A stretch of DNA of 34,924 nt from a virus (lineage: Duplodnaviria > Heunggongvirae > Uroviricota > Caudoviricetes): the IMG/VR virus record IMGVR_UViG_2896589216_000002. The stretch is one strand, 5' to 3'. Below, piece after piece: positions 1 through 28,826 of the stretch; position 1 is the stretch's first letter, and every line of letters begins with the position of its first letter. The position numbers were made by a program, and so were the translations under genes. The notes beneath the pieces are model-generated. The model was not told the origin of the DNA. It made no database searches and saw only the letters and a program-made list of their open reading frames with translations.

Positions 1-381
1 ATGCAGAAAAATGTGAATCCCGGCAGGCGAAAAGGCTGCCCTAATTATCCTCCCGAATTTAAACAGCAGCTCGTTGCTGCCTCCTGTGAACCCGGGATAT
101 CCATCTCAAAACTTGCTCTTGAAAATGGCATTAACGCCAATCTGTTGTTCAAATGGCGACAACAATGGCGCGAGGGAAAGCTGCTATTACCTTCTTCAGA
201 GAGCCCCCAGCTACTTCCTGTGACTCTCGATGCAGCTGCCGAACAGCCAGAATCGCTCGCAGAGGATCCGGAAACCCTCAGTATCAGCTGTGAGGTAACG
301 TTCCGGCACGGGACGCTCCGCTTTAATGGCAATGTCAGCGAAAAGCTCCTGACTCTGCTGATACAGGAACTGAAGCGATGA
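1..381 (+). CDS. tnpA: IS66-family accessory protein TnpA (OrfA), first ~7 codons cut by window edge
   Basis: Identical to the 133-aa ORFs at 19886-20287 and 28328-28729 (which start MGTKVSDMQKNVN). Confidence 0.85.
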   Translation: MQKNVNPGRRKGCPNYPPEFKQQLVAASCEPGISISKLALENGINANLLFKWRQQWREGKLLLPSSESPQLLPVTLDAAAEQPESLAEDPETLSISCEVTFRHGTLRFNGNVSEKLLTLLIQELKR

Positions 382-725
382 TCCCGTTACCTTCCGGGAC
401 CAAAATTTGGCTGGTTGCCGGTATCACCGATATGAGAAATGGCTTCAACGGCCTGGCGGCAAAGGTGCAGACGACGCTGAAAGACGATCCGATGTCAGGT
501 CACGTTTTTATCTTCCGTGGGCGTAATGGCAGTCAGGTAAAGCTCCTCTGGTCTACCGGCGATGGACTGTGTCTGCTGACCAAACGGCTGGAGCGCGGCC
601 GCTTCGCCTGGCCGTCAGCCCGGGATGGCAAAGTGTTCCTCACACCGGCACAGCTGGCGATGCTCCTTGAAGGTATCGACTGGCGGCAGCCTAAAAGACT
701 GCTTACGTCCCTGACTATGTTGTAA
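378..725 (+). CDS. tnpB: IS66-family TnpB (OrfB), 115 aa
   Basis: ATGA overlap with tnpA; conserved IS66 OrfB-type sequence; three identical copies in window. Confidence 0.85.
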   Translation: MIPLPSGTKIWLVAGITDMRNGFNGLAAKVQTTLKDDPMSGHVFIFRGRNGSQVKLLWSTGDGLCLLTKRLERGRFAWPSARDGKVFLTPAQLAMLLEGIDWRQPKRLLTSLTML

Positions 726-773
726 GCCTCTTTATCCTGGTCGACGCTGAATGAGCCTGGTAATATACCCGGT

Positions 774-2312
774 ATGAGCAGCTCACTTCCTGACGATATC
801 AATGCACTGAAACGTCTCCTTGCCGAACAGGAGGCGCTGAACCGTGCCCTGCTGGAAAAGCTGAACGAGCGTGAACGCGAAATAGACCATCTGCAGGCAC
901 AGCTGGATAAGCTGCGCCGGATGAACTTCGGCAGCCGCTCCGAAAAAGTCTCCCGTCGTATCGCACAGATGGAAGCTGACCTGAAGGCACTTCAGAAAGA
1001 AAGTGATACCCTTACCGGTCGGGTTGACGACCCGGCCGTGCAGCGCCCGCTGCGTCAAACCCGCACCCGCAAACCGTTCCCCGAATCACTCCCCCGCGAT
1101 GAAAAACGGCTGCTGCCGGCAGCGTCATGCTGCCCGGAATGTGGAGGCTCACTGAGCTATCCGGGTGAGGATGCCGCCGAACAGCTGGAGTTGATGCGCA
1201 GCGTCTTCCGGGTTATCCGGACTGTACGTGAAAAGCATGCCTGTACTCAGTGCGATGCCATCGTGCAGGCCCCCGCGCCTTCACGGCCCATCGAGCGGGG
1301 TATCGCAGGACCGGGGCTGCTGGCCCGCGTGCTGATCTCAAAGTATGCAGAGCACACCCCGCTGTACCGCCAGTCTGAAATGTACGGCCGCCAGGGCGTG
1401 GAGCTGAGTCGTTCACTGCTGTCGGGCTGGGTGGATGCATGCTGCCGGCTACTGTCACCGCTGGAAGAAGCGCTTCAGGACTATGTGCTGACTGACGGTA
1501 AGCTCCATGCTGATGACACGCCTGTCCCGGTGCTGTTGCCAGGCAATAAGAAAACGAAGACCGGGCGGTTATGGACCTACGTTCGTGACGACCGTAACGC
1601 CGGGTCAACGCTGGCGCCGGCGGTGTGGTTCGCTTACAGCCCGGACAGAAAAGGCATCCATCCGCAGACCCATCTTGCGGGGTTCAGTGGTGTACTGCAG
1701 GCGGATGCATACGCCGGGTTCAACGAGCTGTACCGGGATGGCCGGATAACGGAAGCCGCCTGTTGGGCTCACGCCCGCCGTAAAATCCACGATGTGCACG
1801 TTCGCACCCCGTCAGCCCTGACGGAGGAAGCGCTGAAACGGATCGGCGAACTGTACGCCATCGAGGCAGAGATAAGGGGAATGACGGCGGAGCAGCGCCT
1901 TGCCGAACGTCAGTTGAAAACGAAACCGCTGCTGAAATCCCTGGAAAGCTGGCTGCGTGAAAAGATGAAAACCCTGTCGCGACACTCAGAACTGGCGAAA
2001 GCGTTCGCATACGCCCTGAACCAGTGGCCGGCGCTGACGTACTATGCAGATGATGGCTGGGCTGAGGCGGACAATAACATCGCTGAAAATGCGTTGCGGA
2101 TGGTCAGTCTGGGCCGCAAAAACTACCTGTTCTTCGGTTCGGATCATGGAGGAGAGCGGGGAGCGCTGCTGTACAGCCTGATCGGGACGTGCAAACTGAA
2201 CGGAGTGGAGCCAGAAAGCTACCTCCGCTATGTCCTTGACGTCATAGCCGACTGGCCGATAAACCGGGTCGGCGAACTGCTCCCCTGGCGCGTAGCACTG
2301 CCGACTGAATAA
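774..2312 (+). CDS. tnpC: IS66-family transposase TnpC, 512 aa
   Basis: Long ORF with Cys-rich zinc-finger-like region (CCPECG...CTQC); identical to copy 3. Confidence 0.9.
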
Positions 2313-2345
2313 CACATCCCCGTCAATACGGTTCTTGCTGCACGC

Positions 2346-2705
2346 TTACGATTTTGCCAGCATGACTACCGGGGACAGGCGGCCCAGTGAGTCGGGACCA
2401 GCATTCCAGATACGACCGTTCCATTCAAACGTGAACGGCTTCGCCTCCTGTTCTGCGCGCCATGCTTCAATTTCCTGACGTCTGGCCTCTCTGGCCGCTT
2501 CCTGCATTTCTGGTGTCACAGTGAATGGGGCTATCTCACCCCATTTGCCGCTTTGCAGTTCCTGCCAGATTTGCTGACCCGTCGGAGCGACATCATCAGC
2601 GGTGGCTGTGTAGGGGACTGCCTGGTCCCTGTCGTCAAAAAAAACGTCACAGTCTACTGCGCCACTTTCGGTATAACGGGGATTAATGATTTTTTTAGTT
2701 TCCAC
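2346..2705 (-). pseudogene. tail fiber assembly protein (Tfa-like), GTG start at 2705; 3' end abuts IS66 and stop codon lies inside the IS terminus
   Basis: RBS gagga upstream of GTG (VETKKIINPRY...); last sense codon 2349-2351 and stop 2346-2348 straddle the IS66 end. Confidence 0.5.
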
Positions 2706-4124: not shown

Positions 4125-4476
4125 AGTTTTTCTCGCGATAAATTAAATCAGGAAGAAATTTCCGGAGAGGCGGGCCATTCAATGGCGTTGTATGAGGTTT
4201 TATCAGTGATGACACTGAAATCCATCGCCTGCAGCGATTTCGCGTAAATGCGGTACGCTTTCAGTTTTTCCCGGTCTTCGTCGCTGATTAGCCCCAGCAG
4301 CAGGTCTTCTTCCCATTCCCCTGTCCGGGCACTGACCTGAGCCAGAAGGGCATCACGCTCATCTTCCGCTTTGAGTCTGTAGTCAAAGACAAATTCATCA
4401 TTGCGGTAAAACCAGTAACCCGGCGCGGTAATGCGGCGGTTGGCGGTAATATCAGGAACTTGGTAATGACTCCAAC

Positions 4477-4980
4477 TTACTGATAGTGTTTTATGTTCAG
4501 ATAATGCCCGATGACCTTGTCATGCAGCTCCACCGATTTTGAGAACGACAGTGACTTCCGTCCCAGCCTTGCCAGATGTTGTCTCAGATTCAGATTATGT
4601 CGCTCAATGCGCTGAGTGTAACGCTTGCTGATAACGTGCAGCTTTCCCTTCAGGCGTGATTCATACAGCGGCCAGCCATCCGTCATCCATACCACGACCT
4701 CAAAGGCCGACAGCAGGCTCAGAAGACGCTCCAGTGTGGCCAGAGTGCGTTCACCGAAGACGTGCGCCACAACCGTCCTCCGTATCCTGTCATACGCGTA
4801 AAACAGCCAGCGCTGACGTGATTTAGCACCGACGTAGCCCCACTGTTCGTCCATTTCAGCGCAGACAATCACATCACTGCCCGGTTGTATGCGCGAGGTT
4901 ACCGACTGCGGCCTGAGTTTTTTAAGTGACGTAAAACCGTGTTGAGGCCAACGCCCATAATGCGTGCACTGGCGCGACAT
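4477..4980 (-). CDS. insB: IS1 InsB
   Basis: Canonical IS1 InsB sequence. Confidence 0.9.
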
Positions 4981-5174
4981 CCGACGCCATTCATGGCCAT
5001 ATCAATGATTTTCTGGTGCGTACCGGGCTGAGAGGCGGTGTAAGTGAACTGTAGTTGCCATGTTTTACGGCAATGAGAGCAGAGATAGCGCTGATGTCCG
5101 GCAGTGCTTTTGCCGTTACGCACCACGCCTTCAGTAGCGGAGCAGGAAGGACATCTGATGGAAATGGAAGCCAC
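4899..5174 (-). CDS. insA: IS1 InsA
   Basis: Canonical 91-aa InsA with CxxC zinc finger. Confidence 0.9.
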
Positions 5175-5472
5175 GCAAGCACCTTAAAATCACCATCATA
5201 CACTAAATCAGTAAGTTGGCAGCATTACCCAGGAACTTCAATAACACTGGCGTTACGGGGTTCAATGCCTGTCACATCCTTACCGACCCACACCACGCGA
5301 CCGTCTCCGGTGTAAGTTATTTTAATTGTGTCGCTGGCGAAATTCTTCAGCTCTTCATACCAGTTTTTTCCGTCTTCCGAAAAAAGCCAGGTGACATCAT
5401 ATTGTTTTGTCAGCTGATATTGTTCCACGGTTTTCGGATTGCCCGCAGTAATATTTTTTAAATGCAACATTG

Positions 5473-8787: not shown

Positions 8788-10025
8788 TTATGCCTCCTGG
8801 AGTTTCACACTGATATCCGACACATCCAGAACCGGAATCTCATCTATCCCGAAAGTGACAGCCGTTGTCCATGACGAACCGTCACGGCTCACAGTAAGGC
8901 CCAGAATATCAATATGTTCCGGATCGGTTTTGTAAATGCCGGCATAGTAGCGCCCGGCAGAGACAACAGAGGCAACCCTTGCCCGCAGACCACCATCTGT
9001 ACCATTAAATGCGTCCAGCACGGATTGCTGTACCTGTCGGGTAATATCTGAAGGCAGGTAGTCACTTTTTTTCAGCGTCACACTGACATGCAGACTGACG
9101 GGTTTGAGTGTCTGCCAGCTGATTACGTATTCAGGATACGGCGGATCGTACTCCTTATCTGCAACAGTGAACGTTGTGTTGCCATTCATATCAATACCCG
9201 GCGGAGCCTTACGCCAGATGGCCGCCGCGATATCTGCCGGGCTGCCGCCGTACACGCCAACATAAAGCGAACCGGGTGTTAATGGATACTGACTGACTCC
9301 GGCTTTTTGTTCTGTTTTTTTCGGATTATGGGGGACGTAAACATCCACCACGTTTTCTACCGTGGAGAGTATTTCACCCCGGATGGCTTCCAGAATATTC
9401 CGGGCATTACGGGCAACTGAATTACGTCGGCGGTTTTCAAAGTCCGCACGGGTTTCCTCATCGCTGCCCGGCACACCGGCACGGGCGTTAGTGACACCTG
9501 ACCAGCCAGGTATTGCCTTATAAATTTTATTCAGCGTCCCCACAGGACAGCCGACGGGGCCGGTGGACAAATTCAGAAATACCGCATCAACCTGCCCTGA
9601 TGCGCCGATAGTGACGTCTGACTGACATACTTATAACCGGCCTCATCCTGCCCCATACTGCCCGCCGGGATCAGCGTGCCAACCAGCCCGGTACAGGTCG
9701 CTGTTACTGTCGTACCTGTGGCCCCACGGCGCTCCAGGAAATAAATCCTGCCTATTGCATCCTGAAAGCGACCACTGGAAAAGTCAGGGTTGATCTGGTT
9801 AACGATATACAGCAACTGATCGTTTTTATCCGCAATAATGGCGCTTTCGCTGGATGCAAGTTGTCCCTGCGGACTGCTCAGACTGGTACTCATGGCCCCG
9901 CCCAGCGCCGCCGAAAAATCAGCAAGCCTGCCGCTCAGAATATCCGCTTCATCCGGCACATTCAGCCCGCTATCCGAAATCTGTACAGCGGGCACTGCGG
10001 TAGAAAAAGATTTATTTTCACTCAT
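8788..10025 (-). pseudogene. baseplate J-like protein split by an apparent 1-nt frameshift near 9615-9635
   Basis: 150-aa N-terminal ORF (9573-10025) and 260-aa ORF (8788-9570); the second frame reads ...SDVTIGASGQVDAVFLN... straight after the first stops. Confidence 0.6.
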
Positions 10026-11068: not shown

Positions 11069-11918
11069 TTTCTTCAGCCCTCATCATGGTACAGTTGGAA
11101 CTCCACGGACCGCCCACGGTTCGCGAAGTAATGGTGTGTATCACCCCTGTGATCGTATAATCGCCCGTCATATCAGGCAGTGACGATTCCAGATGCGCTG
11201 GCCTGCCAGTAAAGAGATCGGGGCAGAATATCGTGGTGGCGCTGAGTCCGGTCATGGTGTAAACCGGATAGCCAGTCAGTCCGTGATCCGGCGAAATCAG
11301 TACCGGCGGAATATTCCGGTTCTGCCCTTTCGGCCAGATGGTGACTTTCTCCACATTCCCCAGATCAATGTTAATATCGGCGGCTGAAGCGACATCCAGC
11401 ATTTGTTGTACAACATTACCGGAAAAATGCGGGTCAGACAGACTGCGGCTGACCCCCTGGTTTTCAAATCCAAGCCCGACAGTTGACGCCAGCGCACGGA
11501 TAATATCTGCAACCGCAACATCGCCCTTTGCGCTGAAATCTGCCGCCGGCTGATTACGCAGATTAAAATGAATCTGTCCTGTCAGAATGAGCGGAATATC
11601 CGGCGCCTGGTTGTAGTCGGCGTATGCATCAGTAATATCACCTTCAAAAATAAGCCGCCCGTCGGCCCACAGCCGCATTTTATTTGCGGTACTCTGCTCC
11701 TGTCGCCACACACCGCGCCAGCTTAAATTCGTCATATGCGCCGGTGACATTCCCCAGATATACAGCGTGATTTGTGTACCAGCCACCCCTCCATATACGG
11801 CAATACTGGCAAAACAGCTTGCGTCGGTAATGGTCAGCATATTGCCCTGGCCATTACCAAACGTTCGTCCGTCTGAAAGAGTGAACTCCACCGTTATTTT
11901 ACGTTGTCTGTAGCTCAT
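11049..11918 (-). CDS. phage tail protein, possible baseplate hub, 289 aa
   Basis: Position between tape measure and baseplate genes. Confidence 0.4.
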
Positions 11919-12217
11919 ATCAGTTCCTCAGGTAACAGCCAGTAGAGCCGGTACCGGGATCCGAGCCCCCGCCAGTCAGGGTCACTATTCCCCTCCGTGT
12001 CGGTAAAAAACAGATCCCCCTGAAACGGCAGGTATCCGTACCGGACAATCCGGTTATTATTCAGACACAGCACGCCATACAGGCACGGTTCACCATTAAC
12101 AATGATATCGATATACATCCCCGTAGTACGCTGATTCAGGCGAATGGTGCAGACCTGAGCGCCCAGTGTCACCGTAAACTGCTGGGCTTTAACGGGAGAT
12201 AAAACAATTTCCAGCAT
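11915..12217 (-). CDS. phage tail protein, 100 aa
   Basis: Translationally coupled within tail operon. Confidence 0.35.
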
Positions 12218-12927
12218 CAGGTGATCCCCCTGTTCGTGGCGCTTCGTCTGTCAGCGTCTGACGGTTGTGTCTCCGACGCCGTAACTGGCTGCGTTTTAAC
12301 CGATGCGGCCCCTTTTGCTTTATCGTTGTCCGTGGGAGACGACTTATCCGTACTTCCCACTGACACCTCTCCTGTATTCATTACGGTCTGAAATACCGCA
12401 GTAACCGTCAGTAAGGTCGGACCATTATTACTTCGCATTCGGTAGTCATATTTCACAAGGTCGCAGGATGTCCATGTCTTGTCCGGCGTCTCAATATCGT
12501 AGAGTCCTGCCGTGGTACGCATCCTTTCAAGCGTTTCCAGCACATTCGTCCGCGAGGTGGTGGAAAAATTTGTCAGGTTCGGGACGGATCCGGAAAAGGC
12601 CGTCCACCCCTCTACAGTGAAAGTCACATGCAGTTCCGGCGATCTCTGGATTTTATTAAAGGTGGTATAAGCCCCCTGCTCCACGGGGACGGTGGAAACA
12701 GAAGCCTCCGCGCCCACCTCAACGACAACAAAAGAATCCGGGGAGAAAGGTTTGCCACCCTTCTGATGGGCACCTGCCGGATCATTCCGTGCGTAATAAA
12801 TACCGAATGACGGTGCCAGTACACTATTAATGAGTCCCAGGACACAGCCGCCACGAACTGCACTCAGTACGTTACTTTCACTGAGCGAAAAGTTATTCAG
12901 GGAAATATTATCGAAAGAAAAACTCAT
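12217..12927 (-). CDS. phage tail protein, 236 aa, directly downstream of tape measure
   Basis: Operon position; overlapping stop/start. Confidence 0.4.
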
Positions 12928-14944
12928 CCTGTTACCCCGCTGGAATAAACCGACACAAGCGCCGAATTCGTGATACGCCGACGTGCGTCATCGGTAATAC
13001 CCTTCACATTGTCCGACGTTGTGGTGACATTCAGTGTCCCGATATGCGTGGTTTCCGTTACGGTGGACTGCGATACAGGCGCAGGATGGAGCGACCGTAT
13101 GGCCATTGCCGCACCCGGATAAGGCAGGTTCGCCAGCACCCGCGGAATATAGTTGCGGGTCTCCTCCGGAGCAGCAGCCAGTCCCTTACGCTGAACATTT
13201 CCCTCTCCACAGTTATATGCCGCCAGAGCCTTAGCCAGATCGCCATGAAAAAAACGTATCAGGCCACCAAGTTTTCTCGCGGCGGCATCAGCGGCTTTTT
13301 CGGGATCAAAGGCATCGTTCCCCCTCAGACCAAATTCACTGGCCGTCTTCGGCATGAACTGAAACAGTCCCATCGCACCAGCAGGTGAGACGGCAAACTG
13401 ATTACCACGGGATTCGGTGATCGCAACGCTGCGCAGCAGTCCGGGCGGCAGGTTATATTTTTCCTCCAGTTGAGACAGTTTCGGTTGCAGCCAGCCTAAC
13501 AGGGCTTCCCCGGTCTTCGTCGGTCGCTGGCGGTTTTGCATGGCATTACCGAGTTTTTCCTGCGTCGCACGCATACCCTGTAGCCAGGATTCACCGAAGG
13601 CTGCTTCCCTCCCGGTTGCCTGAGAAGCCTGAGTATCCAGCATGCCCTGCTGCCATACTGTGGGTGATTGTGCCCGGGTGATGTTGCCAGGCTTTTCTCC
13701 GGCATCCAGTTTTGTCTGATACGTCTCCATCTCTTTCTTATTGAAAAAGAAAGTCCCGTCTGAAGCCCAGAAAAAACCATGTGAATCCAGCCAGTCCTTA
13801 TTTTCCCTGCCAACAATGGATGTCAGTAATCCGTCAACAACCGGGTAAAGCGCCGTTATCGCAAAAAGAAGGCCTCCGGGGCCACTGAGGGCTTTTGTCA
13901 GCCCCCGCACCCATGACGCCACTTTCAGCCCGATCAGCGTAATAATGACATTCTGCCAGCCCCCCAGTTCTCCGGCAGCCTTATTCGCTAGGGAGGCCAC
14001 TGACTCAACGTCATTCAGAAATGTGGTGATAAACCTGTTCACTTCCTCCGGATGTTGCTGCATCCAGTCACCGAGTGTCTCCAGCCAGTGGCTGAGCTTC
14101 AGCGCGTACGGCATCAACGCGGTGCTAATCGTCATCCCGATGCCGGACCAGGTCTGATCGAGCTCAACAAGCTCTTTTCGTAGCTTACGGGCCAGCGCTG
14201 TACGCCCCGGCGTAACCTGCGAACGGGAAGTAAATTCGTCCACATCTTTCAGCGCATGACCGGAGCCAAGAAACTGCTGTCCGGCATAACTGAAGCCCAG
14301 CGCGTTGCCGTAGGCAGTTTGTTCGGACTTTGTCAGTCGCGGAAAAATAACCGCCAGCTTGCGCATGATGGCTTCAGTGCTGTCAGTATTTAAATCAACA
14401 CTAATGCCCGCCCTGGCTGCAACCTGAAACAAATCCTGTAACACAGGATCAAAGGACCTTCCGGCTCTGAAGGCCGCTTTTGCATTTGCAAGCCGGGAAA
14501 ATGCCCCAGACATTTCCCCTTCATCAACATTATTTGCCCGCGCAGCCCGTAACCATCCGTCCAGATTTCTGGCCTTCATGCCAAAAGCATCGGATTCCAC
14601 GGACAGACGGTTCAGATCACGGGCAAAACCTGTTACCAGGTTCTTCAGCCCCCCAGCGTCAGACTGACACCCGCAAGAGCCAGAATCTCGCTACGGATTC
14701 CTGAAAAAAAACGGGACGCCCGTTTCCCGGCATCTTCCATTCGACGGGCCGTTTTATCAGCATCTTTTCCGGTTTTTTCCAGTGATTCACTGGTTTTCTT
14801 CTGTCCCTGACTGAATGTGTCAGCGACACCTTCCATCACCGTCGTGAGCCGGTTAAGGGCAGCATGTACTGCCTGTTCCCCGGCAGTAAAGTCCCTGTCA
14901 TCAATCCCGAGGGACAGAACAAGCTCATCAAGTACCTGCGCCAT
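12924..14944 (-). CDS. tail tape measure protein with C-terminal lytic transglycosylase (SLT) domain; N-terminal 99 aa and main 558 aa separated by a frameshift in a C6 tract
   Basis: SLT motif (ITESRGNQFAVSPAGAMGLFQFMP...AYNCGEGNV); adding one G to the run at 14649-14654 fuses the frames as ...SLTLGGLKNLVTGFARDLNRLSVESDAF... Confidence 0.7.
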
Positions 14945-15180
14945 TTCTGTTCTCCTGTATCACCTGTTCGTTATGGGCATCCACATGAATTATTTCCAGC
15001 AGATCCCATAAGTCCTGCACACCAAGGACAGAATCCAGTTCAGCTTTTGAAGCCTTACCGGAGGAGATAACGGTCGCAATGGTACGGGGAACATTAACGT
15101 AATCCACCACCCCGAACGGTCTGTCGGGGTCGAGATAACGCGGGGGATATCTAGCTGACGACGGTAGCGAAAAAATCCAC
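14928..15180 (-). CDS. candidate frameshift extension of tail chaperone (+1 frame relative to 15151-15555)
   Basis: Protein-like +1 frame (...PRYLDPDRPFGVVDYVNVPRTIATVISSGKASKAELDSVLGVQDLWDLLEIIHVD...) opens at the T6C run and ends overlapping the tape measure start. Confidence 0.4.
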
Positions 15181-15555
15181 ATGCAGCTTAAAGACCTCCG
15201 CACGCAGATTAAGACGGGTAATGATTTCTTCAATATCCTCTTCAACAAGCGGTCTCCGGATGCTGCGTTTTTTCGGATCGGGAACAAACTGCACACAGTC
15301 CATCATTTCATCCATCAACGGACGCGCCTCATCAGGCGGAATTTTCGATAATGCTTTCAGCCCTTCAAGGGCAAGCGCAGCCATCCCCAGACTACGAACA
15401 TCATCCGGTAACTCCACGCCACCACGCCCCATTGCCATAATGGCACGCATCGCCCACCATTCCGCCTGTGAGGCAGACATTTCGGTAAGATGAAATACCT
15501 TGCCCTTATCCCGTCCCTGACCTTCAATAGTGATAAATTTCTCTTTACGGGCCAT
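15151..15555 (-). CDS. tail assembly chaperone, 134 aa
   Basis: Directly upstream of tape measure; ends at slippery run GAT TTT TTC. Confidence 0.5.
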   Translation of the reverse strand: MARKEKFITIEGQGRDKGKVFHLTEMSASQAEWWAMRAIMAMGRGGVELPDDVRSLGMAALALEGLKALSKIPPDEARPLMDEMMDCVQFVPDPKKRSIRRPLVEEDIEEIITRLNLRAEVFKLHVDFFATVVS

Positions 15556-15893
15556 CAGTTAAAAACCTCCGGAGTAATGGTTTCCCACTCAATAACCGCC
15601 TGCCCTGGCTGCAACGTACGAGCTGCATCAGGCAGCGCTTTCCATTGTTTGAGTACGCCATTCACGCAGGTATATTTACGGCCAATCGCCGGAAGCAGGA
15701 CGACAGCGTTACAACGGAATACAGCCCGACTGGCCCGGATGTGGTTGACCAGGTATCAAAAATATCCCGGCTGGGGGAATCCGGCATGATATGAAACGTC
15801 TGGATAATGTTGCTGTACACAAATCCCGCGGACAGTTTGGTAATGCTGCCAACTTACTGATTTAGTGTATGATGGTGATTTTAAGGTGCTTGC

Positions 15894-16169
15894 GTGGCTT
15901 CCATTTCCATCAGATGTCCTTCCTGCTCCGCTACTGAAGGCGTGGTGCGTAACGGCAAAAGCACTGCCGGACATCAGCGCTATCTCTGCTCTCATTGCCG
16001 TAAAACATGGCAACTACAGTTCACTTACACCGCCTCTCAGCCCGGTACGCACCAGAAAATCATTGATATGGCCATGAATGGCGTCGGATGTCGCGCCAGT
16101 GCACGCATTATGGGCGTTGACCTCAACACGGTTTTCCGTCACTTAAAAAACTCAGGCCGCAGTCGGTAA
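15894..16169 (+). CDS. insA: IS1 InsA
   Basis: 91-aa InsA. Confidence 0.9.
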
Positions 16170-16195
16170 CCTCGCGCATACAACCGGGCAGTGAT

Positions 16196-16591
16196 GTGAT
16201 TGTCTGCGCTGAAATGGACGAACAGTGGGGCTACGTCGGTGCTAAATCACGTCAGCGCTGGCTGTTTTACGCGTATGACAGGATACGGAGGACGGTTGTG
16301 GCGCACGTCTTCGGTGAACGCACTCTGGCCACACTGGAGCGTCTTCTGAGCCTGCTGTCGGCCTTTGAGGTCGTGGTATGGATGACGGATGGCTGGCCGC
16401 TGTATGAATCACGCCTGAAGGGAAAGCTGCACGTTATCAGCAAGCGTTACACTCAGCGCATTGAGCGACATAATCTGAATCTGAGACAACATCTGGCAAG
16501 GCTGGGACGGAAGTCACTGTCGTTCTCAAAATCGGTGGAGCTGCATGACAAGGTCATCGGGCATTATCTGAACATAAAACACTATCAGTAA
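16196..16591 (+). CDS. insB: IS1 InsB
   Basis: InsB frame. Confidence 0.9.
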
Positions 16592-17955
16592 GTTGGAGTC
16601 ATTACCGACAGTTTACCGTCAATACCGCGGGCAGTTTCCGCCAGTACCAGTGGATCGGTGCCATAAACGTTATCTGTTGCAAATCCCTGAAGTCGTACGC
16701 CGGAGGGATACAGATTATTCACTGTCAGCGTGATAATGGCATCCGCCGCAGTGATGGTGTTGTTGTTACCCGACATTTACTGGACCTCCGTGGATGCAAT
16801 AACAAGTTTCTGGATACTACCGCCGTCACAGTACCAGAGCGTACAGGACGGACTGCTACGGGTTGCCCGCAAAGAGGGAAGCATATCGCCGATATACAGG
16901 TAATAGCCGGTGGCAAACAACGTTGAAGAAACATCTGCCTCCACAACATTGTTAATCTGTTTCTTCTGCGCCTCCGTCAGTGTCACCCCTTCACGGATCC
17001 CTCCCAGCGTTTGTACTGCTGGATAACGTCACTCATTGACGCTGCAACCAGCGCCCGCCCTTCATTGTTGTAGGGGACCGTCTGGTTTGACTTGAATAAT
17101 GCGATCACCGCCCCTGCAAACTGGCATTCAGCCAGATTTGCCCGCAGAAACTGTCCAGCCATTTAAAATCACCGGTAATAGTGCCATCCGCCCAGTAATC
17201 TTCCACCACACTGTTTTCCGCATATTTTCCGTAGAAATTGTAACCTGCGGCGATCAGCGCATCATAATCGCTGCCACTGGTAACATCAGCGGCCAGCCCC
17301 TCATACTCGCGGAACTTGAATGATACACGCCCCTCTGGTCGGATAAAATCAAGGCACGCTGCATACCCCAGTACCGCTGCAGCCCGGTTACCATCAGTCG
17401 CGAAAACAGGTACAACAGAGCTGTAGTTATTGACAGCAATTATCTGGTAAGCGATGTGTTCAGTACTGCCTTTTACTCTGGCGTTGCCGCTGGTTGTCCA
17501 TGCCACATAAAAGTAACGCTTGCCCTGCCCGTTTGCCCATGCAGAAAACGCCAGGTGTTGCTCGTCAGTGACCTCAGATACCGTGGAAAAACCCGCCCAT
17601 TGCTGGGAAGCGGCCTTAATGGCTGCCATTGTGTCAGGGACATCAGATACAGGCGCGCCCCGGGATATCACCGCACCGGTGTTACTGGTCATCTTCAGGA
17701 GTTCTGCTGCCGATCCACTGCCGAACGTTATCGTGGTACTCCCGGGTTTCGCCCCGGCGACAGTAATGACAAAAGCATTCTGTGTGGTATCGAATACCAC
17801 TGTAGCCACTGCTGCGGTCAGCGCTGTCTGTAGTGCCGTTGCAGCAGCGGCGAAGCTGGCGACACCGTTAAAATTCACTTCAATGCTGACGCTTTTCCCG
17901 TTAATACTCAGCATCAGCGTAAGCGTGCAGCAAGAACCGTATTGACGGGGATGTG

Positions 17956-19493
17956 TTATTCAGTCGGCAGTGCTACGCGCCAGGGGAGCAGTTCGCCGAC
18001 CCGGTTTATCGGCCAGTCGGCTATGACGTCAAGTACATAGCGGAGGTAGCTTTCTGGCTCCACTCCGTTCAGTTTGCACGTCCCGATCAGGCTGTACAGC
18101 AGCGCTCCCCGCTCTCCTCCATGATCCGAACCGAAGAACAGGTAGTTTTTGCGGCCCAGACTGACCATCCGCAACGCATTTTCAGCGATGTTATTGTCCG
18201 CCTCAGCCCAGCCATCATCTGCATAGTACGTCAGCGCCGGCCACTGGTTCAGGGCGTATGCGAACGCTTTCGCCAGTTCTGAGTGTCGCGACAGGGTTTT
18301 CATCTTTTCACGCAGCCAGCTTTCCAGGGATTTCATCAGCGGTTTCGTTTTCAACTGACGTTCGGCAAGGCGCTGCTCCGCCGTCATTCCCCTTATCTCT
18401 GCCTCGATGGCGTACAGTTCGCCGATCCGTTTCAGCGCTTCCTCCGTCAGGGCTGACGGGGTGCGAACGTGCACATCGTGGATTTTACGGCGGGCGTGAG
18501 CCCAACAGGCGGCTTCCGTTATCCGGCCATCCCGGTACAGCTCGTTGAACCCGGCGTATGCATCCGCCTGCAGTACACCACTGAACCACGCAAGATGGGT
18601 CTGCGGATGGATGCCTTTTCTGTCCGGGCTGTAAGCGAACCACACCGCCGGCGCCAGCGTTGACCCGGCGTTACGGTCGTCACGAACGTAGGTCCATAAC
18701 CGCCCGGTCTTCGTTTTCTTATTGCCTGGCAACAGCACCGGGACAGGCGTGTCATCGCATGGAGCTTACCGTCAGTCAGCACATAGTCCTGAAGCGCTTC
18801 TTCCAGCGGTGACAGTAGCCGGCAGCATGCATCCACCCAGCCCGACAGCAGTGAACGACTCAGCTCCACGCCCTGGCGGCCGTACATTTCAGACTGGCGG
18901 TACAGCGGGGTGTGCTCTGCATACTTTGAGATCAGCACGCGGGCCAGCAGCCCCGGTCCTGCGATACCCCGCTCGATGGGCCGTGAAGGCGCGGGGGCCT
19001 GCACGATGGCATTGCACTGAGTACAGGCATGCTTTTCACGTACAGTCCGGATAACCCGGAAGACGCTGCGCATCAACTCCAGCTGTTCGGCGGCATCCTC
19101 ACCCGGATAGCTCAGTGAGCCTCCACATTCCGGGCAGCATGACGCTGCCGGCAGCAGCCGTTTTTCATCGCGGGGGAGTGATTCGGGGAACGGTTTGCGG
19201 GTGCGGGTTTGACGCAGCGGGCGCTGCACGGCCGGGTCGTCAACCCGACCGGTAAGGGTATCACTTTCTTTCTGAAGTGCCTTCAGGTCAGCTTCCATCT
19301 GTGCGATACGACGGGAGACTTTTTCGGAGCGGCTGCCGAAGTTCATCCGGCGCAGCTTATCCAGCTGTGCCTGCAGATGGTCTATTTCGCGTTCACGCTC
19401 GTTCAGCTTTTCCAGCAGGGCACGGTTCAGCGCCTCCTGTTCGGCAAGGAGACGTTTCAGTGCATTGATATCGTCAGGAAGTGAGCTGCTCAT
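17956..19493 (-). pseudogene. tnpC: IS66 tnpC with 1-nt deletion (copy 2)
   Basis: gtcatcgcatgg near 18755-18760 versus gtcatcagcatgg in copy 3; ORF splits into 324 + 260 aa. Confidence 0.85.
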
Positions 19494-19541
19494 ACCGGGT
19501 ATATTACCAGGCTCATTCAGCGTCGACCAGGATAAAGAGGC

Positions 19542-19889
19542 TTACAACATAGTCAGGGACGTAAGCAGTCTTTTAGGCTGCCGCCAGTCGATACCTTCAA
19601 GGAGCATCGCCAGCTGTGCCGGTGTGAGGAACACTTTGCCATCCCGGGCTGACGGCCAGGCGAAGCGGCCGCGCTCCAGCCGTTTGGTCAGCAGACACAG
19701 TCCATCGCCGGTAGACCAGAGGAGCTTTACCTGACTGCCATTACGCCCACGGAAGATAAAAACGTGACCTGACATCGGATCGTCTTTCAGCGTCGTCTGC
19801 ACCTTTGCCGCCAGGCCGTTGAAGCCATTTCTCATATCGGTGATACCGGCAACCAGCCAAATTTTGGTCCCGGAAGGTAACGGGATCAT
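19542..19889 (-). CDS. tnpB: IS66 TnpB (copy 2)
   Basis: Identical to copies 1 and 3. Confidence 0.85.
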   Translation of the reverse strand: MIPLPSGTKIWLVAGITDMRNGFNGLAAKVQTTLKDDPMSGHVFIFRGRNGSQVKLLWSTGDGLCLLTKRLERGRFAWPSARDGKVFLTPAQLAMLLEGIDWRQPKRLLTSLTML

Positions 19890-20287
19890 CGCTTCAGTTC
19901 CTGTATCAGCAGAGTCAGGAGCTTTTCGCTGACATTGCCATTAAAGCGGAGCGTCCCGTGCCGGAACGTTACCTCACAGCTGATACTGAGGGTTTCCGGA
20001 TCCTCTGCGAGCGATTCTGGCTGTTCGGCAGCTGCATCGAGAGTCACAGGAAGTAGCTGGGGGCTCTCTGAAGAAGGTAATAGCAGCTTTCCCTCGCGCC
20101 ATTGTTGTCGCCATTTGAACAACAGATTGGCGTTAATGCCATTTTCAAGAGCAAGTTTTGAGATGGATATCCCGGGTTCACAGGAGGCAGCAACGAGCTG
20201 CTGTTTAAATTCGGGAGGATAATTAGGGCAGCCTTTTCGCCTGCCGGGATTCACATTTTTCTGCATATCTGACACTTTGGTTCCCAC
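19886..20287 (-). CDS. tnpA: IS66 TnpA (copy 2)
   Basis: 133-aa full-length. Confidence 0.85.
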   Translation of the reverse strand: MGTKVSDMQKNVNPGRRKGCPNYPPEFKQQLVAASCEPGISISKLALENGINANLLFKWRQQWREGKLLLPSSESPQLLPVTLDAAAEQPESLAEDPETLSISCEVTFRHGTLRFNGNVSEKLLTLLIQELKR

Positions 20288-20687
20288 TACTTATTTGGTG
20301 GACACCACTTTGTCTAATTCGTCAGATTCTGACCAGACGGTTCAGGCTGTACGCTTACGCATCAGCGTGCCGGAAAGTTTTTGTAGCTGTTCAACAGTCG
20401 CGCCCTTAAACGAACCGCTACGTAACCAGGCCGCCGATGGGGCAGGACTGAAACGGGAAAACAACAATTGCCCCGGCGTCCTGGTGGCATTTTTGAAGCC
20501 CTGGAAATAAAGCTGAGCGCGTGCGTACTCATCGGATAATGCACCAAAATACGCGGCCACATCATCCGGAGAGGAAAACGGAACCACAGTGCCGACCGGA
20601 AGTAACGGATTACTGGTCAACAGCAGGCCGTTAAGATCGACGGCATTACCCGCCACAGCCAGCACACCGGGATTTATCTGTACATCT

Positions 20688-22617: not shown

Positions 22618-23685
<1,068 letters not shown>

Positions 23686-23694
23686 ATGGCGACA

Positions 23695-23910
23695 TTATTC
23701 ACCTCTCGCAGCCTTACGCTTATCTTCTCTTATTTTGAAATACAGATTCGTCAGATAAGTCAGAAGCCCCAGAAGCAGACTTCCCAGCACACCAATCGCA
23801 GCCCACTGTGATGGACTGACCTGATCCAACCACTGCAAAAACCAGTAGCCGGCACTGCCGGCGGAGGTGCCGTAGGCAATGCCCGTTGAAATTTTGTCCA
23901 TGGATTTCAT
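23695..23910 (-). CDS. phage-21-type pinholin (S21 family), 71 aa, dual-start motif MKSMDK
   Basis: Near-identical to the S21 holin as I recall it ([30 protein letters not shown]...); second Met at 23901. Confidence 0.8.
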
Positions 23911-24593: not shown

Positions 24594-25894
<1,301 letters not shown>

Positions 25895-26232: not shown

Positions 26233-26359
26233 GGTGATGACTCCAACTTACTGATAGTGTTTTATGTTCAGATAATGCCCGATGACCTTGTCATGCAGCT
26301 CCACCGATTTTGAGAACGACAGTGACTTCCGTCCCAGCCTTGCCAGATGTTGTCTCAGA
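26233..26359 (-). mobile_element. IS1 fragment (127 bp, IRR end plus insB 3' end), truncated by IS66 copy 3
   Basis: Identical to the 4462-4588 end of IS1 copy 1 up to ...tgtctcaga. Confidence 0.9.
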
Positions 26360-26396
26360 GTAAGCGTGCAGCAAGAACCGTATTGACGGGGATGTG

Positions 26397-27935
26397 TTAT
26401 TCAGTCGGCAGTGCTACGCGCCAGGGGAGCAGTTCGCCGACCCGGTTTATCGGCCAGTCGGCTATGACGTCAAGTACATAGCGGAGGTAGCTTTCTGGCT
26501 CCACTCCGTTCAGTTTGCACGTCCCGATCAGGCTGTACAGCAGCGCTCCCCGCTCTCCTCCATGATCCGAACCGAAGAACAGGTAGTTTTTGCGGCCCAG
26601 ACTGACCATCCGCAACGCATTTTCAGCGATGTTATTGTCCGCCTCAGCCCAGCCATCATCTGCATAGTACGTCAGCGCCGGCCACTGGTTCAGGGCGTAT
26701 GCGAACGCTTTCGCCAGTTCTGAGTGTCGCGACAGGGTTTTCATCTTTTCACGCAGCCAGCTTTCCAGGGATTTCAGCAGCGGTTTCGTTTTCAACTGAC
26801 GTTCGGCAAGGCGCTGCTCCGCCGTCATTCCCCTTATCTCTGCCTCGATGGCGTACAGTTCGCCGATCCGTTTCAGCGCTTCCTCCGTCAGGGCTGACGG
26901 GGTGCGAACGTGCACATCGTGGATTTTACGGCGGGCGTGAGCCCAACAGGCGGCTTCCGTTATCCGGCCATCCCGGTACAGCTCGTTGAACCCGGCGTAT
27001 GCATCCGCCTGCAGTACACCACTGAACCCCGCAAGATGGGTCTGCGGATGGATGCCTTTTCTGTCCGGGCTGTAAGCGAACCACACCGCCGGCGCCAGCG
27101 TTGACCCGGCGTTACGGTCGTCACGAACGTAGGTCCATAACCGCCCGGTCTTCGTTTTCTTATTGCCTGGCAACAGCACCGGGACAGGCGTGTCATCAGC
27201 ATGGAGCTTACCGTCAGTCAGCACATAGTCCTGAAGCGCTTCTTCCAGCGGTGACAGTAGCCGGCAGCATGCATCCACCCAGCCCGACAGCAGTGAACGA
27301 CTCAGCTCCACGCCCTGGCGGCCGTACATTTCAGACTGGCGGTACAGCGGGGTGTGCTCTGCATACTTTGAGATCAGCACGCGGGCCAGCAGCCCCGGTC
27401 CTGCGATACCCCGCTCGATGGGCCGTGAAGGCGCGGGGGCCTGCACGATGGCATCGCACTGAGTACAGGCATGCTTTTCACGTACAGTCCGGATAACCCG
27501 GAAGACGCTGCGCATCAACTCCAGCTGTTCGGCGGCATCCTCACCCGGATAGCTCAGTGAGCCTCCACATTCCGGGCAGCATGACGCTGCCGGCAGCAGC
27601 CGTTTTTCATCGCGGGGGAGTGATTCGGGGAACGGTTTGCGGGTGCGGGTTTGACGCAGCGGGCGCTGCACGGCCGGGTCGTCAACCCGACCGGTAAGGG
27701 TATCACTTTCTTTCTGAAGTGCCTTCAGGTCAGCTTCCATCTGTGCGATACGACGGGAGACTTTTTCGGAGCGGCTGCCGAAGTTCATCCGGCGCAGCTT
27801 ATCCAGCTGTGCCTGCAGATGGTCTATTTCGCGTTCACGCTCGTTCAGCTTTTCCAGCAGGGCACGGTTCAGCGCCTCCTGTTCGGCAAGGAGACGTTTC
27901 AGTGCATTGATATCGTCAGGAAGTGAGCTGCTCAT
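26397..27935 (-). CDS. tnpC: IS66 transposase TnpC (copy 3, intact)
   Basis: 512 aa, identical to copy 1. Confidence 0.9.
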
Positions 27936-27983
27936 ACCGGGTATATTACCAGGCTCATTCAGCGTCGACCAGGATAAAGAGGC

Positions 27984-28331
27984 TTACAACATAGTCAGGG
28001 ACGTAAGCAGTCTTTTAGGCTGCCGCCAGTCGATACCTTCAAGGAGCATCGCCAGCTGTGCCGGTGTGAGGAACACTTTGCCATCCCGGGCTGACGGCCA
28101 GGCGAAGCGGCCGCGCTCCAGCCGTTTGGTCAGCAGACACAGTCCATCGCCGGTAGACCAGAGGAGCTTTACCTGACTGCCATTACGCCCACGGAAGATA
28201 AAAACGTGACCTGACATCGGATCGTCTTTCAGCGTCGTCTGCACCTTTGCCGCCAGGCCGTTGAAGCCATTTCTCATATCGGTGATACCGGCAACCAGCC
28301 AAATTTTGGTCCCGGAAGGTAACGGGATCAT
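27984..28331 (-). CDS. tnpB: IS66 TnpB (copy 3)
   Basis: Identical. Confidence 0.85.
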   Translation of the reverse strand: MIPLPSGTKIWLVAGITDMRNGFNGLAAKVQTTLKDDPMSGHVFIFRGRNGSQVKLLWSTGDGLCLLTKRLERGRFAWPSARDGKVFLTPAQLAMLLEGIDWRQPKRLLTSLTML

Positions 28332-28729
28332 CGCTTCAGTTCCTGTATCAGCAGAGTCAGGAGCTTTTCGCTGACATTGCCATTAAAGCGGAGCGTCCCG
28401 TGCCGGAACGTTACCTCACAGCTGATACTGAGGGTTTCCGGATCCTCTGCGAGCGATTCTGGCTGTTCGGCAGCTGCATCGAGAGTCACAGGAAGTAGCT
28501 GGGGGCTCTCTGAAGAAGGTAATAGCAGCTTTCCCTCGCGCCATTGTTGTCGCCATTTGAACAACAGATTGGCGTTAATGCCATTTTCAAGAGCAAGTTT
28601 TGAGATGGATATCCCGGGTTCACAGGAGGCAGCAACGAGCTGCTGTTTAAATTCGGGAGGATAATTAGGGCAGCCTTTTCGCCTGCCGGGATTCACATTT
28701 TTCTGCATATCTGACACTTTGGTTCCCAC
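28328..28729 (-). CDS. tnpA: IS66 TnpA (copy 3)
   Basis: Identical. Confidence 0.85.
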   Translation of the reverse strand: MGTKVSDMQKNVNPGRRKGCPNYPPEFKQQLVAASCEPGISISKLALENGINANLLFKWRQQWREGKLLLPSSESPQLLPVTLDAAAEQPESLAEDPETLSISCEVTFRHGTLRFNGNVSEKLLTLLIQELKR

Positions 28730-28826
28730 TACTTATTTGGTGGACACCACTTTGTCTAATTCGTCAGATTCTGACCAGACGGTTCAGGCTGTACGCTTAC
28801 GTTTTTATAATCCGGCCATGACATTT

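What the first reader, a model, noticed from the sequence alone, without database searches (positions are those of the whole stretch)
14600..14700. Tape measure gene broken at a C6 homopolymer
The 99-aa N-terminal ORF and the 558-aa SLT-containing ORF are out of frame; one extra base in the run at 14649-14654 fuses them into a ~657-aa protein. This could be a sequencing artefact, a real inactivating mutation, or a slippage-prone tract.
Basis: seen in the sequence. Interest (0 to 1): 0.4.

Follow-up and report, generated by a model that had tools for sequence, protein, structure and literature searches.

The report
Artefactual frameshift in prophage tape-measure gene
The break is really in the sequence, but it is almost certainly a one-base long-read miscall in a run of seven C:G pairs, inside one tail gene of a Shigella prophage that other lesions had already disabled, so it is ordinary.

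Summary
On the minus strand, a 99-aa ORF (14944-14645) and the SLT-containing reading frame (to 12924) are halves of one gene. They are separated by a -1 frame offset at the C6 run at 14649-14654 (G6 on the coding strand). One added base gives a 673-aa protein, not ~657. This protein matches the phage 'lytic tail protein'/tape-measure family phrog_2013 end to end.

The repaired protein exists exactly in public data: it is indexed in 224 blocks of the collection, 215 of them holding only short contigs. The 99-aa product of the G6 allele was found on 13 contigs, 9 of which are chromosome-sized.

Over 6.3 kb the window is 100% identical to CP026832.1, a PacBio assembly of S. dysenteriae 14 ATCC 49346. 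Compared with independent assemblies of the same lineage, it lacks one base in each of four G/C runs within 9 kb but differs by only 1-2 SNPs from the closest. Sister long-read assemblies differ from it only by scattered one-base G/C deletions. The G6/G7 state also conflicts with the SNP haplotypes.

The best reading is an assembly artefact (about 0.85). A real slippage mutation is the main rival, because G8 and T7 variants do occur in short contigs. Two naturally separate genes, or a programmed frameshift, are rejected. The prophage is in any case disabled by IS1, IS66 and a 4-bp deletion.

The parts
12924..14944 (-). The whole tape-measure-like 'lytic tail protein' gene. It is 2021 nt in the window and 2022 nt (673 aa) when the run is G7.
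   Evidence: The repaired protein matches phrog_2013 at 1-672 against 1-656/657, E 8e-246, and TMP families phrog_2276 (1e-29) and phrog_9570 (3e-20). PGAP annotates the intact 673-aa CDS in E. coli RMDEC364 and a 'frameshifted' pseudogene in CFSAN029787.
14645..14944 (-). The 99-aa N-terminal ORF. It ends at a TGA created by the missing base.
   Evidence: It matches phrog_2013 positions 1-76. The identical product was found on 13 contigs, 9 of them longer than 1 Mb.
14649..14654 (-). The homopolymer: C6 on the + strand, G6 on the coding strand. Intact alleles have G7, and G8 also occurs.
12924..14648 (-). The downstream part of the gene in the -1 frame. The ORF lister calls it 558 aa from the GTG at 14600; gene callers start it at the ATG at 14444 (506 aa).
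   Evidence: It matches phrog_2013 positions 94-656.
13152..13469 (-). The SLT lytic transglycosylase domain, residues 493-598 of the repaired protein.
   Evidence: Pfam PF01464, 90.2 bits against a cut-off of 21.3. PDB sequence matches to T7 gp16 and to a 'gp41 tape measure protein' (9b45) cover only this domain.
15151..15555 (-). The tail assembly chaperone gene immediately upstream. It provides the synteny evidence that the next gene is the tape measure.
   Evidence: phrog_1932 'tail assembly chaperone', E 3e-59. A T_TTT_TTC heptamer lies at 15175-15169 with an open -1 frame behind it.
15142..15146 (-). A second one-base homopolymer deficit in the window, C5 on the coding strand where the other assemblies have C6.
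   Evidence: All 7 independent G7 assemblies of the lineage have C6. The window and its sister long-read assemblies L007-L009, L011 and L013 have C5.
17003..17114 (-). Two further one-base G-run deficits in the sheath remnant, at 17003-17005 (G3 against G4) and 17111-17114 (G4 against G5).
   Evidence: They split the 379-aa sheath remnant seen in L016-L018 into 269-, 59- and 69-aa ORFs.

Best explanation
The window comes from, or is identical to, the PacBio-only assembly CP026832.1 of Shigella dysenteriae serotype 14 ATCC 49346. The real DNA most likely has seven C:G pairs at 14649-14654, and the consensus caller dropped one. That miscall makes a single 673-aa tail tape-measure-like protein look like a 99-aa ORF plus a 558-aa ORF. 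The protein has an N-terminal helical ruler region and a C-terminal SLT lytic transglycosylase domain, which presumably opens peptidoglycan during tail penetration.

Shown here: the run is the only indel, the intact allele is G7, and the short state goes with long chromosome-level assemblies rather than with ancestry. Inferred: the base is present in the actual strain.

Either way nothing functional depends on it. The prophage was already inactivated by IS1 in the tail tube gene, IS66 in the sheath gene and a 4-bp deletion in the baseplate J gene.
For: 1. Source. Window 11645-17944 is 100% identical, with no mismatches and no gaps, to CP026832.1. PMC10132075 describes that record as a PacBio sequence of S. 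dysenteriae 14 ATCC 49346 from Kim et al. 2018.

2. Exact repaired protein. The window protein repaired with one G carries the haplotype residues A276, C579 and L619. It exists exactly in the public collection as P0017, named Shigella dysenteriae. It is indexed in 224 blocks, 215 of them holding only contigs of 2-50 kb. The E. coli-haplotype intact protein is indexed in 351 blocks. The 99-aa G6 product was found on only 13 contigs, 9 of them longer than 1 Mb. Fisher's exact test on [[9,9],[4,215]] gives p = 5e-9; these are block and contig counts, so it is only a rough measure.

3. Deletion pattern. Seven independent assemblies of the same IS1-bearing lineage were compared: NCTC UYIT01, PSSQ01, CP026828 and four short contigs (two NCBI drafts, two Logan). 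Against them the window shows four one-base deletions in 9 kb, all in G/C runs: G7 to G6, C6 to C5, G5 to G4 and G4 to G3. It differs by only 1-2 SNPs from the closest of them.

4. Sister assemblies. CP026823, CP026815 and CP026825 have 0 mismatches to the window but 2-6 one-base G deletions at differing sites. The run states combine in every way among SNP-identical strains.

5. Conflict with ancestry. SNPs 12272/12014 (A,T or T,C) occur with both G6 and G7, so all four combinations exist. G6 also appears on three wider haplotypes. The short state is therefore homoplasious and follows the type of assembly, not descent.

6. Short contigs of the window haplotype. No short contig with the window haplotype has G6. 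The two exceptions found carry G8 (SRR5018307) or a T8 to T7 change (ERR5984629).
Against: No reads could be examined, so the call for this particular strain is indirect. G6 also occurs in a 1.6-kb Logan contig (SRR34940150), in the draft-genome protein record EPM6537252.1, and in CP091398.1 and E. coli CFSAN029787, whose sequencing platforms I did not verify. Some G6 alleles may therefore be real. The tract does vary in short contigs, where G8 is seen in two lineages. Two assemblies apparently from the same series have G7 (PSSQ01 and CP026828; membership inferred from accession numbers), so the miscall is not universal. Two C7 runs survive elsewhere in the window.
Confidence: 0.85

Rival explanations
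1. A real replication-slippage deletion (G7 to G6) in this strain. It would be one more inactivating lesion accumulating neutrally in a prophage that is already defective.
For: Homopolymer length changes do occur in this gene in short contigs. G8 is seen in S. flexneri GCA_013948745.1 and SRR7826930 and in the S. dysenteriae-lineage run SRR5018307. A T8 to T7 change is seen in ERR5984629. G6 is present in at least one Logan contig. The prophage carries undoubted real lesions, so there is no selection to keep the gene intact: IS1 at 15839-16606, an IS66 junction at about 17914, and a 4-bp deletion at about 9618 that the short contigs share.
Against: G6 is found almost only in chromosome-level assemblies, and it appears on several SNP backgrounds that also carry G7. 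The same record has three more G/C-run deficits that no independent assembly shares. SNP-identical sister assemblies show incompatible combinations of such deficits. No short contig of the window haplotype has G6.
Confidence: 0.12
2. The G tract is a hypermutable contingency tract that switches the tail gene on and off between G6, G7 and G8 under selection.
For: Three tract lengths are seen among isolates. G8 recurs in two lineages in short contigs.
Against: The variants are rare: a few contigs, against hundreds of collection blocks that index the intact G7 protein (224 and 351 for the two haplotypes looked up). All 8 E. coli genomes annotated with an intact gene have matches one base longer than the window, consistent with G7, which was read directly in one of them. 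Seven bases is shorter than typical phase-variable tracts (my own knowledge). A different homopolymer in the same gene also varies (T7), as expected from neutral decay. In Shigella the prophage is dead, so no phenotype is available for selection.
Confidence: 0.02
3. The two ORFs are naturally separate genes, or are joined by a programmed -1 ribosomal frameshift at G_GGG_GGC.
For: A -1 shift is the direction needed to join them. G_GGG_GGC formally has the X_XXY_YYZ shape. An 8-bp hairpin starts a few bases downstream.
Against: Homologues encode one continuous ORF: 673 aa in E. coli and Shigella, 641 aa in Klebsiella phage ST899-OXA48phi17.1 and 585 aa in Edwardsiella phage Edno5. One profile spans both ORFs. 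The downstream fold is not better than shuffled sequence (z -1.5, 18 of 200 shuffles fold as well). The module's real programmed frameshift site sits in the upstream chaperone gene.
Confidence: 0.01

Closest known systems
Phage tail tape measure / 'lytic tail' proteins with a C-terminal SLT lytic transglycosylase domain (PHROG 2013; e.g. the 641-aa transglycosylase of Klebsiella phage ST899-OXA48phi17.1, and WP_046880349.1 of E. coli prophages)
   Same: The repaired protein matches the profile end to end and carries the SLT domain at 493-598. Its position matches too: after the sheath, tube and a frameshifting chaperone, and before the Dit-like baseplate protein, plug and hub of an E217-like myovirus tail module.
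   Different: In this record the gene is split by one missing base. The S. dysenteriae haplotype carries T276A, W579C and R619L relative to the E. coli allele. No classical Pfam tape-measure domain was detected, only SLT.
Homopolymer deletion errors in long-read-only (PacBio RS-era) bacterial assemblies, which create spurious frameshifted pseudogenes
   Same: The deficits are single bases and occur only in G/C runs. There are several per 9 kb, they vary among SNP-identical assemblies that appear (by accession number) to belong to the same sequencing project, and they are absent from the short contigs and the NCTC assembly of the same lineage.
   Different: The read-level evidence that defines such an error was not available here, and a few G6 calls come from other sources.
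Lambda G/GT-type programmed -1 frameshift of tail assembly chaperones
   Same: This module does contain one, at T_TTT_TTC (15175-15169) near the end of the chaperone gene just upstream, with the -1 frame open into the 60-aa phrog_3976 ORF.
   Different: That site is about 500 nt upstream and in another gene. The break at 14649-14654 is not conserved in homologues and needs no recoding.
Phase-variable poly-G/C contingency tracts, such as those in Neisseria and Haemophilus surface genes (my own knowledge)
   Same: It is a coding G run whose length differs (6, 7 or 8) among isolates and which toggles the reading frame.
   Different: The run is short, and variants are rare and scattered. Another run in the same gene also varies, no selectable phenotype exists in a dead prophage, and most G6 calls follow the type of assembly.

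Membership tests
Tail tape measure protein | The gene lies between the tail assembly chaperone (with its -1 frameshift extension) and the baseplate/distal tail genes. | tested here: met
   The chaperone (phrog_1932) is at 15151-15555 and the Dit-like protein (PF21821) at 12217-12927. Sheath (E217_gp31_N) and tube (E217_Gp32) lie upstream, plug and hub downstream.
Tail tape measure protein | Profile similarity to curated tape-measure families. | tested here: inconclusive
   The best PHROG is 'lytic tail protein' (phrog_2013, 8e-246). The tape-measure families phrog_2276 (1e-29, residues 1-607) and phrog_9570 (3e-20, residues 1-463) also match the non-SLT part. Pfam finds only SLT and no tape-measure domain at E<=0.01.
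Tail tape measure protein | The protein sits inside the tail tube and sets tail length. | not testable with these tools
   This needs virion proteomics or cryo-EM, or deletion mutants of an intact relative.
SLT lytic transglycosylase domain (PF01464) | The score is above Pfam's gathering threshold. | tested here: met
   90.2 bits against 21.3, residues 493-598. PDB sequence matches include T7 gp16 and 9b45 gp41.
Sequencing/assembly homopolymer artefact | The difference from trusted sequence is a single-base length change confined to a homopolymer. | tested here: met
   The only indel in the gene is G7 against G6.
Sequencing/assembly homopolymer artefact | The same assembly carries other such deficits that independent assemblies of the same lineage lack. 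| tested here: met
   There are four G/C-run deletions in 9 kb, against 1-2 SNPs to the closest assemblies.
Sequencing/assembly homopolymer artefact | The state follows platform or assembly type rather than phylogeny. | tested here: met
   9 of 13 G6 contigs are longer than 1 Mb, against 9 of 224 blocks for the G7 allele of the same haplotype. All four combinations with SNPs 12272/12014 exist. The PacBio origin of CP026832 is stated in PMC10132075.
Sequencing/assembly homopolymer artefact | The read pile-up shows the longer run. | not testable with these tools
   No reads are available.
Programmed -1 ribosomal frameshift | The two-ORF arrangement and the slippery site are conserved in homologues. 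| tested here: not met
   Homologues are single ORFs.
Programmed -1 ribosomal frameshift | A stimulatory downstream RNA structure is present. | tested here: not met
   z-score -1.5; 18 of 200 shuffles fold as well.
Contingency (phase-variable) homopolymer tract | Tract length varies among isolates in reliable data and is linked to a selectable function. | tested here: inconclusive
   G8 occurs in short contigs of two lineages, and G6 in a few contigs. These variants are rare, and the prophage is defective in Shigella.

The most novel reading that the evidence does not exclude
The G7 run in this tape-measure gene is a genuinely unstable site that flips among G6, G7 and G8 in natural populations at an elevated rate. 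It would then be a mutational switch for tail production in E217-like prophages of E. coli and Shigella, and some of the G6 calls, possibly including this one, would be real.
Probability: 0.04. Interest if true: 0.3.

Novelty: not a real feature. Interest (0 to 1): 0.05.

Why it matters
It matters mainly for data quality. This record, and sister long-read Shigella reference assemblies that appear to come from the same project, carry one-base G/C-homopolymer deficits at roughly one per 2 kb in this region. These create spurious pseudogenes, so frameshifts in these records should not be read as biology without short-read confirmation. Biologically the gene is an ordinary, well-populated prophage tail protein, and the prophage is already inactivated by IS elements and a real 4-bp deletion.

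Tried and rejected
- **Exact-pattern scans.** I scanned the species-representative genomes and the metagenome contigs for the tract with G5-G9. Both scans found nothing, so they said nothing about tract length.
- **Phage collection.** Megablast found no close phage. Only distant protein-level relatives exist, at 35% identity or less over the full length.
- **Split phage homologues.** Several hits were reported as two pieces. Klebsiella phage ST15-VIM1phi2.1 is split at about residue 300, not at this site, and Edno5 is a single gene. There is no conserved split.
- **Programmed frameshift.** The G_GGG_GGC heptamer plus a downstream hairpin was considered. It was rejected on the non-significant fold and the intact homologues.
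- **Internal control with the three IS66 copies.** One copy has a non-homopolymer 1-bp deletion at 18756 and three private SNPs. This neither supports nor contradicts the error model.
- **Kim et al. 2018.** I tried to read this paper for the sequencing method, but it is not held. The platform is taken from a citing paper.
- **CFSAN029787.** The sequencing platform could not be confirmed from the paper read.
- **PDB sequence search.** It matched only the SLT domain.

Full report
**Observation**

The feature is on the minus strand. A 99-aa ORF runs from the ATG at 14944 to a TGA at 14647-14645 and ends ...LALAGVSLTLGG*. The + strand reads CCCCCC at 14649-14654, which is G6 on the coding strand. 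The reading frame one base back is open from the run to 12924 and continues ...GGLKNLVTGFARDLNRLSVESDAFGMK.... The ORF lister reports this frame from the first GTG (14600) as 558 aa. Inserting one G gives a single ORF of 673 aa. The observation and its coordinates are correct.

**What the gene is**

- The repaired protein matches PHROG 2013 ('lytic tail protein') over its whole length, 1-672 against 1-656 of 657 positions, E 8e-246. The two window ORFs cover profile positions 1-76 and 94-656.
- Tape-measure PHROGs 2276 and 9570 match the N-terminal 460-600 residues.
- Pfam finds an SLT lytic transglycosylase domain at 493-598. PDB sequence matches are confined to that domain and include a phage 'gp41 tape measure protein'.
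- The gene sits in an E217-like contractile-tail module. The order is sheath (E217_gp31_N), tube (E217_Gp32), tail assembly chaperone (phrog_1932, 15151-15555), this gene, Dit-like protein, plug, hub, spike, sheath initiator and baseplate J.
- The chaperone carries a canonical T_TTT_TTC heptamer at 15175-15169, with the -1 frame open into the 60-aa phrog_3976 ORF. This is the usual arrangement just upstream of a tape measure gene.

**Are the ORFs naturally separate?**

They are not. Nine complete E. coli genomes hold the region at 99.6% identity or more. Eight have a match one base longer than the window, and the one inspected (RMDEC364) is annotated with an intact 673-aa CDS and has G7. The ninth, CFSAN029787, has G6 and is flagged 'frameshifted'. 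The run is the only indel in the alignment. Distant phage homologues are single genes of 641 aa (Klebsiella phage ST899-OXA48phi17.1) and 585 aa (Edwardsiella phage Edno5). One Klebsiella phage has a split at a different place.

**Where the window comes from**

The 99-aa product is found on 13 contigs, 9 of them chromosome-sized. Window 11645-17944 is identical, with no mismatches and no gaps, to CP026832.1. PMC10132075 describes that record as a PacBio sequence of S. dysenteriae 14 ATCC 49346 from the 59-strain PacBio set of Kim et al. 2018.

**Artefact or mutation?**

Five results point to an artefact.

1. The window protein repaired with one G retains the haplotype-specific residues A276, C579 and L619. 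It exists exactly in the public protein collection under the name Shigella dysenteriae. It is indexed in 224 blocks, 215 of which hold only contigs of 2-50 kb. These contigs show the same lineage-specific context where they extend far enough. The long assemblies L016-L018 and the draft contig L019 show the IS1 insertion next to the chaperone gene, and all align without a gap across the 4-bp deletion in the baseplate J gene.

2. The window was compared with seven independent assemblies of that lineage: an NCTC assembly, two assemblies whose accession numbers place them in the Kim et al. series, and four short contigs. Against them the window has four one-base deletions in 9 kb and only 1-2 SNPs to the closest ones. 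All four lie in G/C runs:

| + strand position | Run in the independent assemblies | Run in the window |
|---|---|---|
| 14649-14654 | G7 | G6 |
| 15142-15146 | C6 | C5 |
| 17111-17114 | G5 | G4 |
| 17003-17005 | G4 | G3 |

3. Sister assemblies CP026823, CP026815 and CP026825 have no mismatches to the window but 2-6 one-base G deletions at different places. The states of the runs at 17111, 17003 and 13960 occur in nearly every combination among strains with no SNP differences. This cannot be tree-like inheritance.

4. G6 and G7 both occur with each allele pair at SNPs 12272/12014, and G6 appears on three wider haplotypes. The short state is enriched in chromosome-level assemblies: 9 of 13 contigs against 9 of 224 blocks, Fisher p = 5e-9. 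That test mixes block and contig counts and is only indicative.

5. The 506-aa downstream product of the window haplotype was looked up. It occurs on three chromosome-sized contigs with similar gene neighbourhoods, of which the one shown (PSST01000003.1) has G6. It also occurs on two Logan short contigs, which owe their break to G8 (SRR5018307) or to a T8 to T7 change at 14704-14711 (ERR5984629), not to G6.

**Caveats**

No reads were available, so the verdict for this strain is an inference. G6 also appears in a short Logan contig (SRR34940150), in the draft-genome protein record EPM6537252.1, in CP091398.1 and in CFSAN029787. I could not establish the platforms behind these. G8 occurs in short contigs of two lineages. 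The tract therefore does change length in nature at low frequency, and a real G6 in this strain keeps a probability of about 0.12.

A programmed frameshift is not supported. Homologues are continuous, and the RNA downstream of the run folds no better than shuffled sequence (z -1.5).

**Biological weight**

The weight is small. In this lineage the prophage is demonstrably dead whatever the state of the tract. IS1 (15839-16606) interrupts the tube gene. An IS66-family element (17914-20359) truncates the sheath gene. A 4-bp deletion at about 9618, shared by the short contigs, splits the baseplate J gene.

**Verdict**

The most likely cause is a long-read homopolymer miscall (0.85). This is not a new biological feature, and interest is low. 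It serves mainly as a warning about spurious pseudogenes in this set of reference assemblies.

Noticed in passing
window 15169-15175 (- strand); extension ORF 14928-15110: The tail assembly chaperone gene (15151-15555) has a canonical -1 slippery heptamer, T_TTT_TTC, seven codons before its stop. In the reference loci the -1 frame stays open from there into the 60-aa phrog_3976 ORF, which is a lambda G/GT-like arrangement. In the window, the missing C at 15142-15146 puts that extension out of register and creates a misleading 122-aa ORF (14928-15296).
   Followed up: partly
window 17003-17005 and 17111-17114: Two more one-base G-run deficits, compared with all independent assemblies, split the 379-aa tail sheath remnant into 269-, 59- and 69-aa ORFs. 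Sister long-read assemblies carry different subsets of these deficits.
   Followed up: yes
window 13960-13965: A second G6 run in the same gene is G5 in four other chromosome-sized assemblies (CP026823, CP026815, CP026825, PSSU01). There it gives 169-aa and 332-aa ORFs, which is the same kind of noise at another run.
   Followed up: partly
window 15839-16606, 4462-5229 and 34208-34924: There are two near-identical IS1 copies (99.7% identical). One is inserted in the tail tube gene, leaving a 63-aa remnant at 16585-16776. A third, diverged IS1-like copy (91% identical) lies at the window end.
   Followed up: partly
window 1-2349, 17914-20359, 26355-28801: There are three IS66-family (ISCro1-like) copies. 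The middle one truncates the sheath gene. It also carries a private 1-bp deletion at 18756, not in a homopolymer, which splits its transposase into 260 and 324 aa where the other copies have 512 aa. It has three private SNPs as well.
   Followed up: partly
window about 9618 (genes 8788-9570 and 9573-10025, - strand): The baseplate J/gp47 gene carries a 4-bp deletion (TCAG) relative to the intact 413-aa E. coli allele. The short contigs and the NCTC assembly of the lineage share it, so it is a genuine inactivating lesion.
   Followed up: yes
window 13209, 13090, 14120 (- strand codons 579, 619, 276): The S. dysenteriae haplotype differs from the E. coli allele by T276A, W579C (inside the SLT domain, in the AAYNWGEGN stretch) and R619L. 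That is three non-synonymous changes out of five substitutions, which fits relaxed constraint, although the numbers are tiny.
   Followed up: no
L023/L024 (S. flexneri), L025/L030 (SRR5018307), L032 (ERR5984629): Short contigs show a G8 allele of the same tract in two lineages and a T8 to T7 change at window 14704-14711 in another isolate. Homopolymer length changes in this gene therefore do occur, or are called, outside long-read data at low frequency.
   Followed up: partly
window 22966-23696, 24637-25365, 33484-34211: Three copies of another repeated, IS-like element are present. One copy differs from the other two by a C5 against C4 run at 23615, so it may be another homopolymer miscall.
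   Followed up: no
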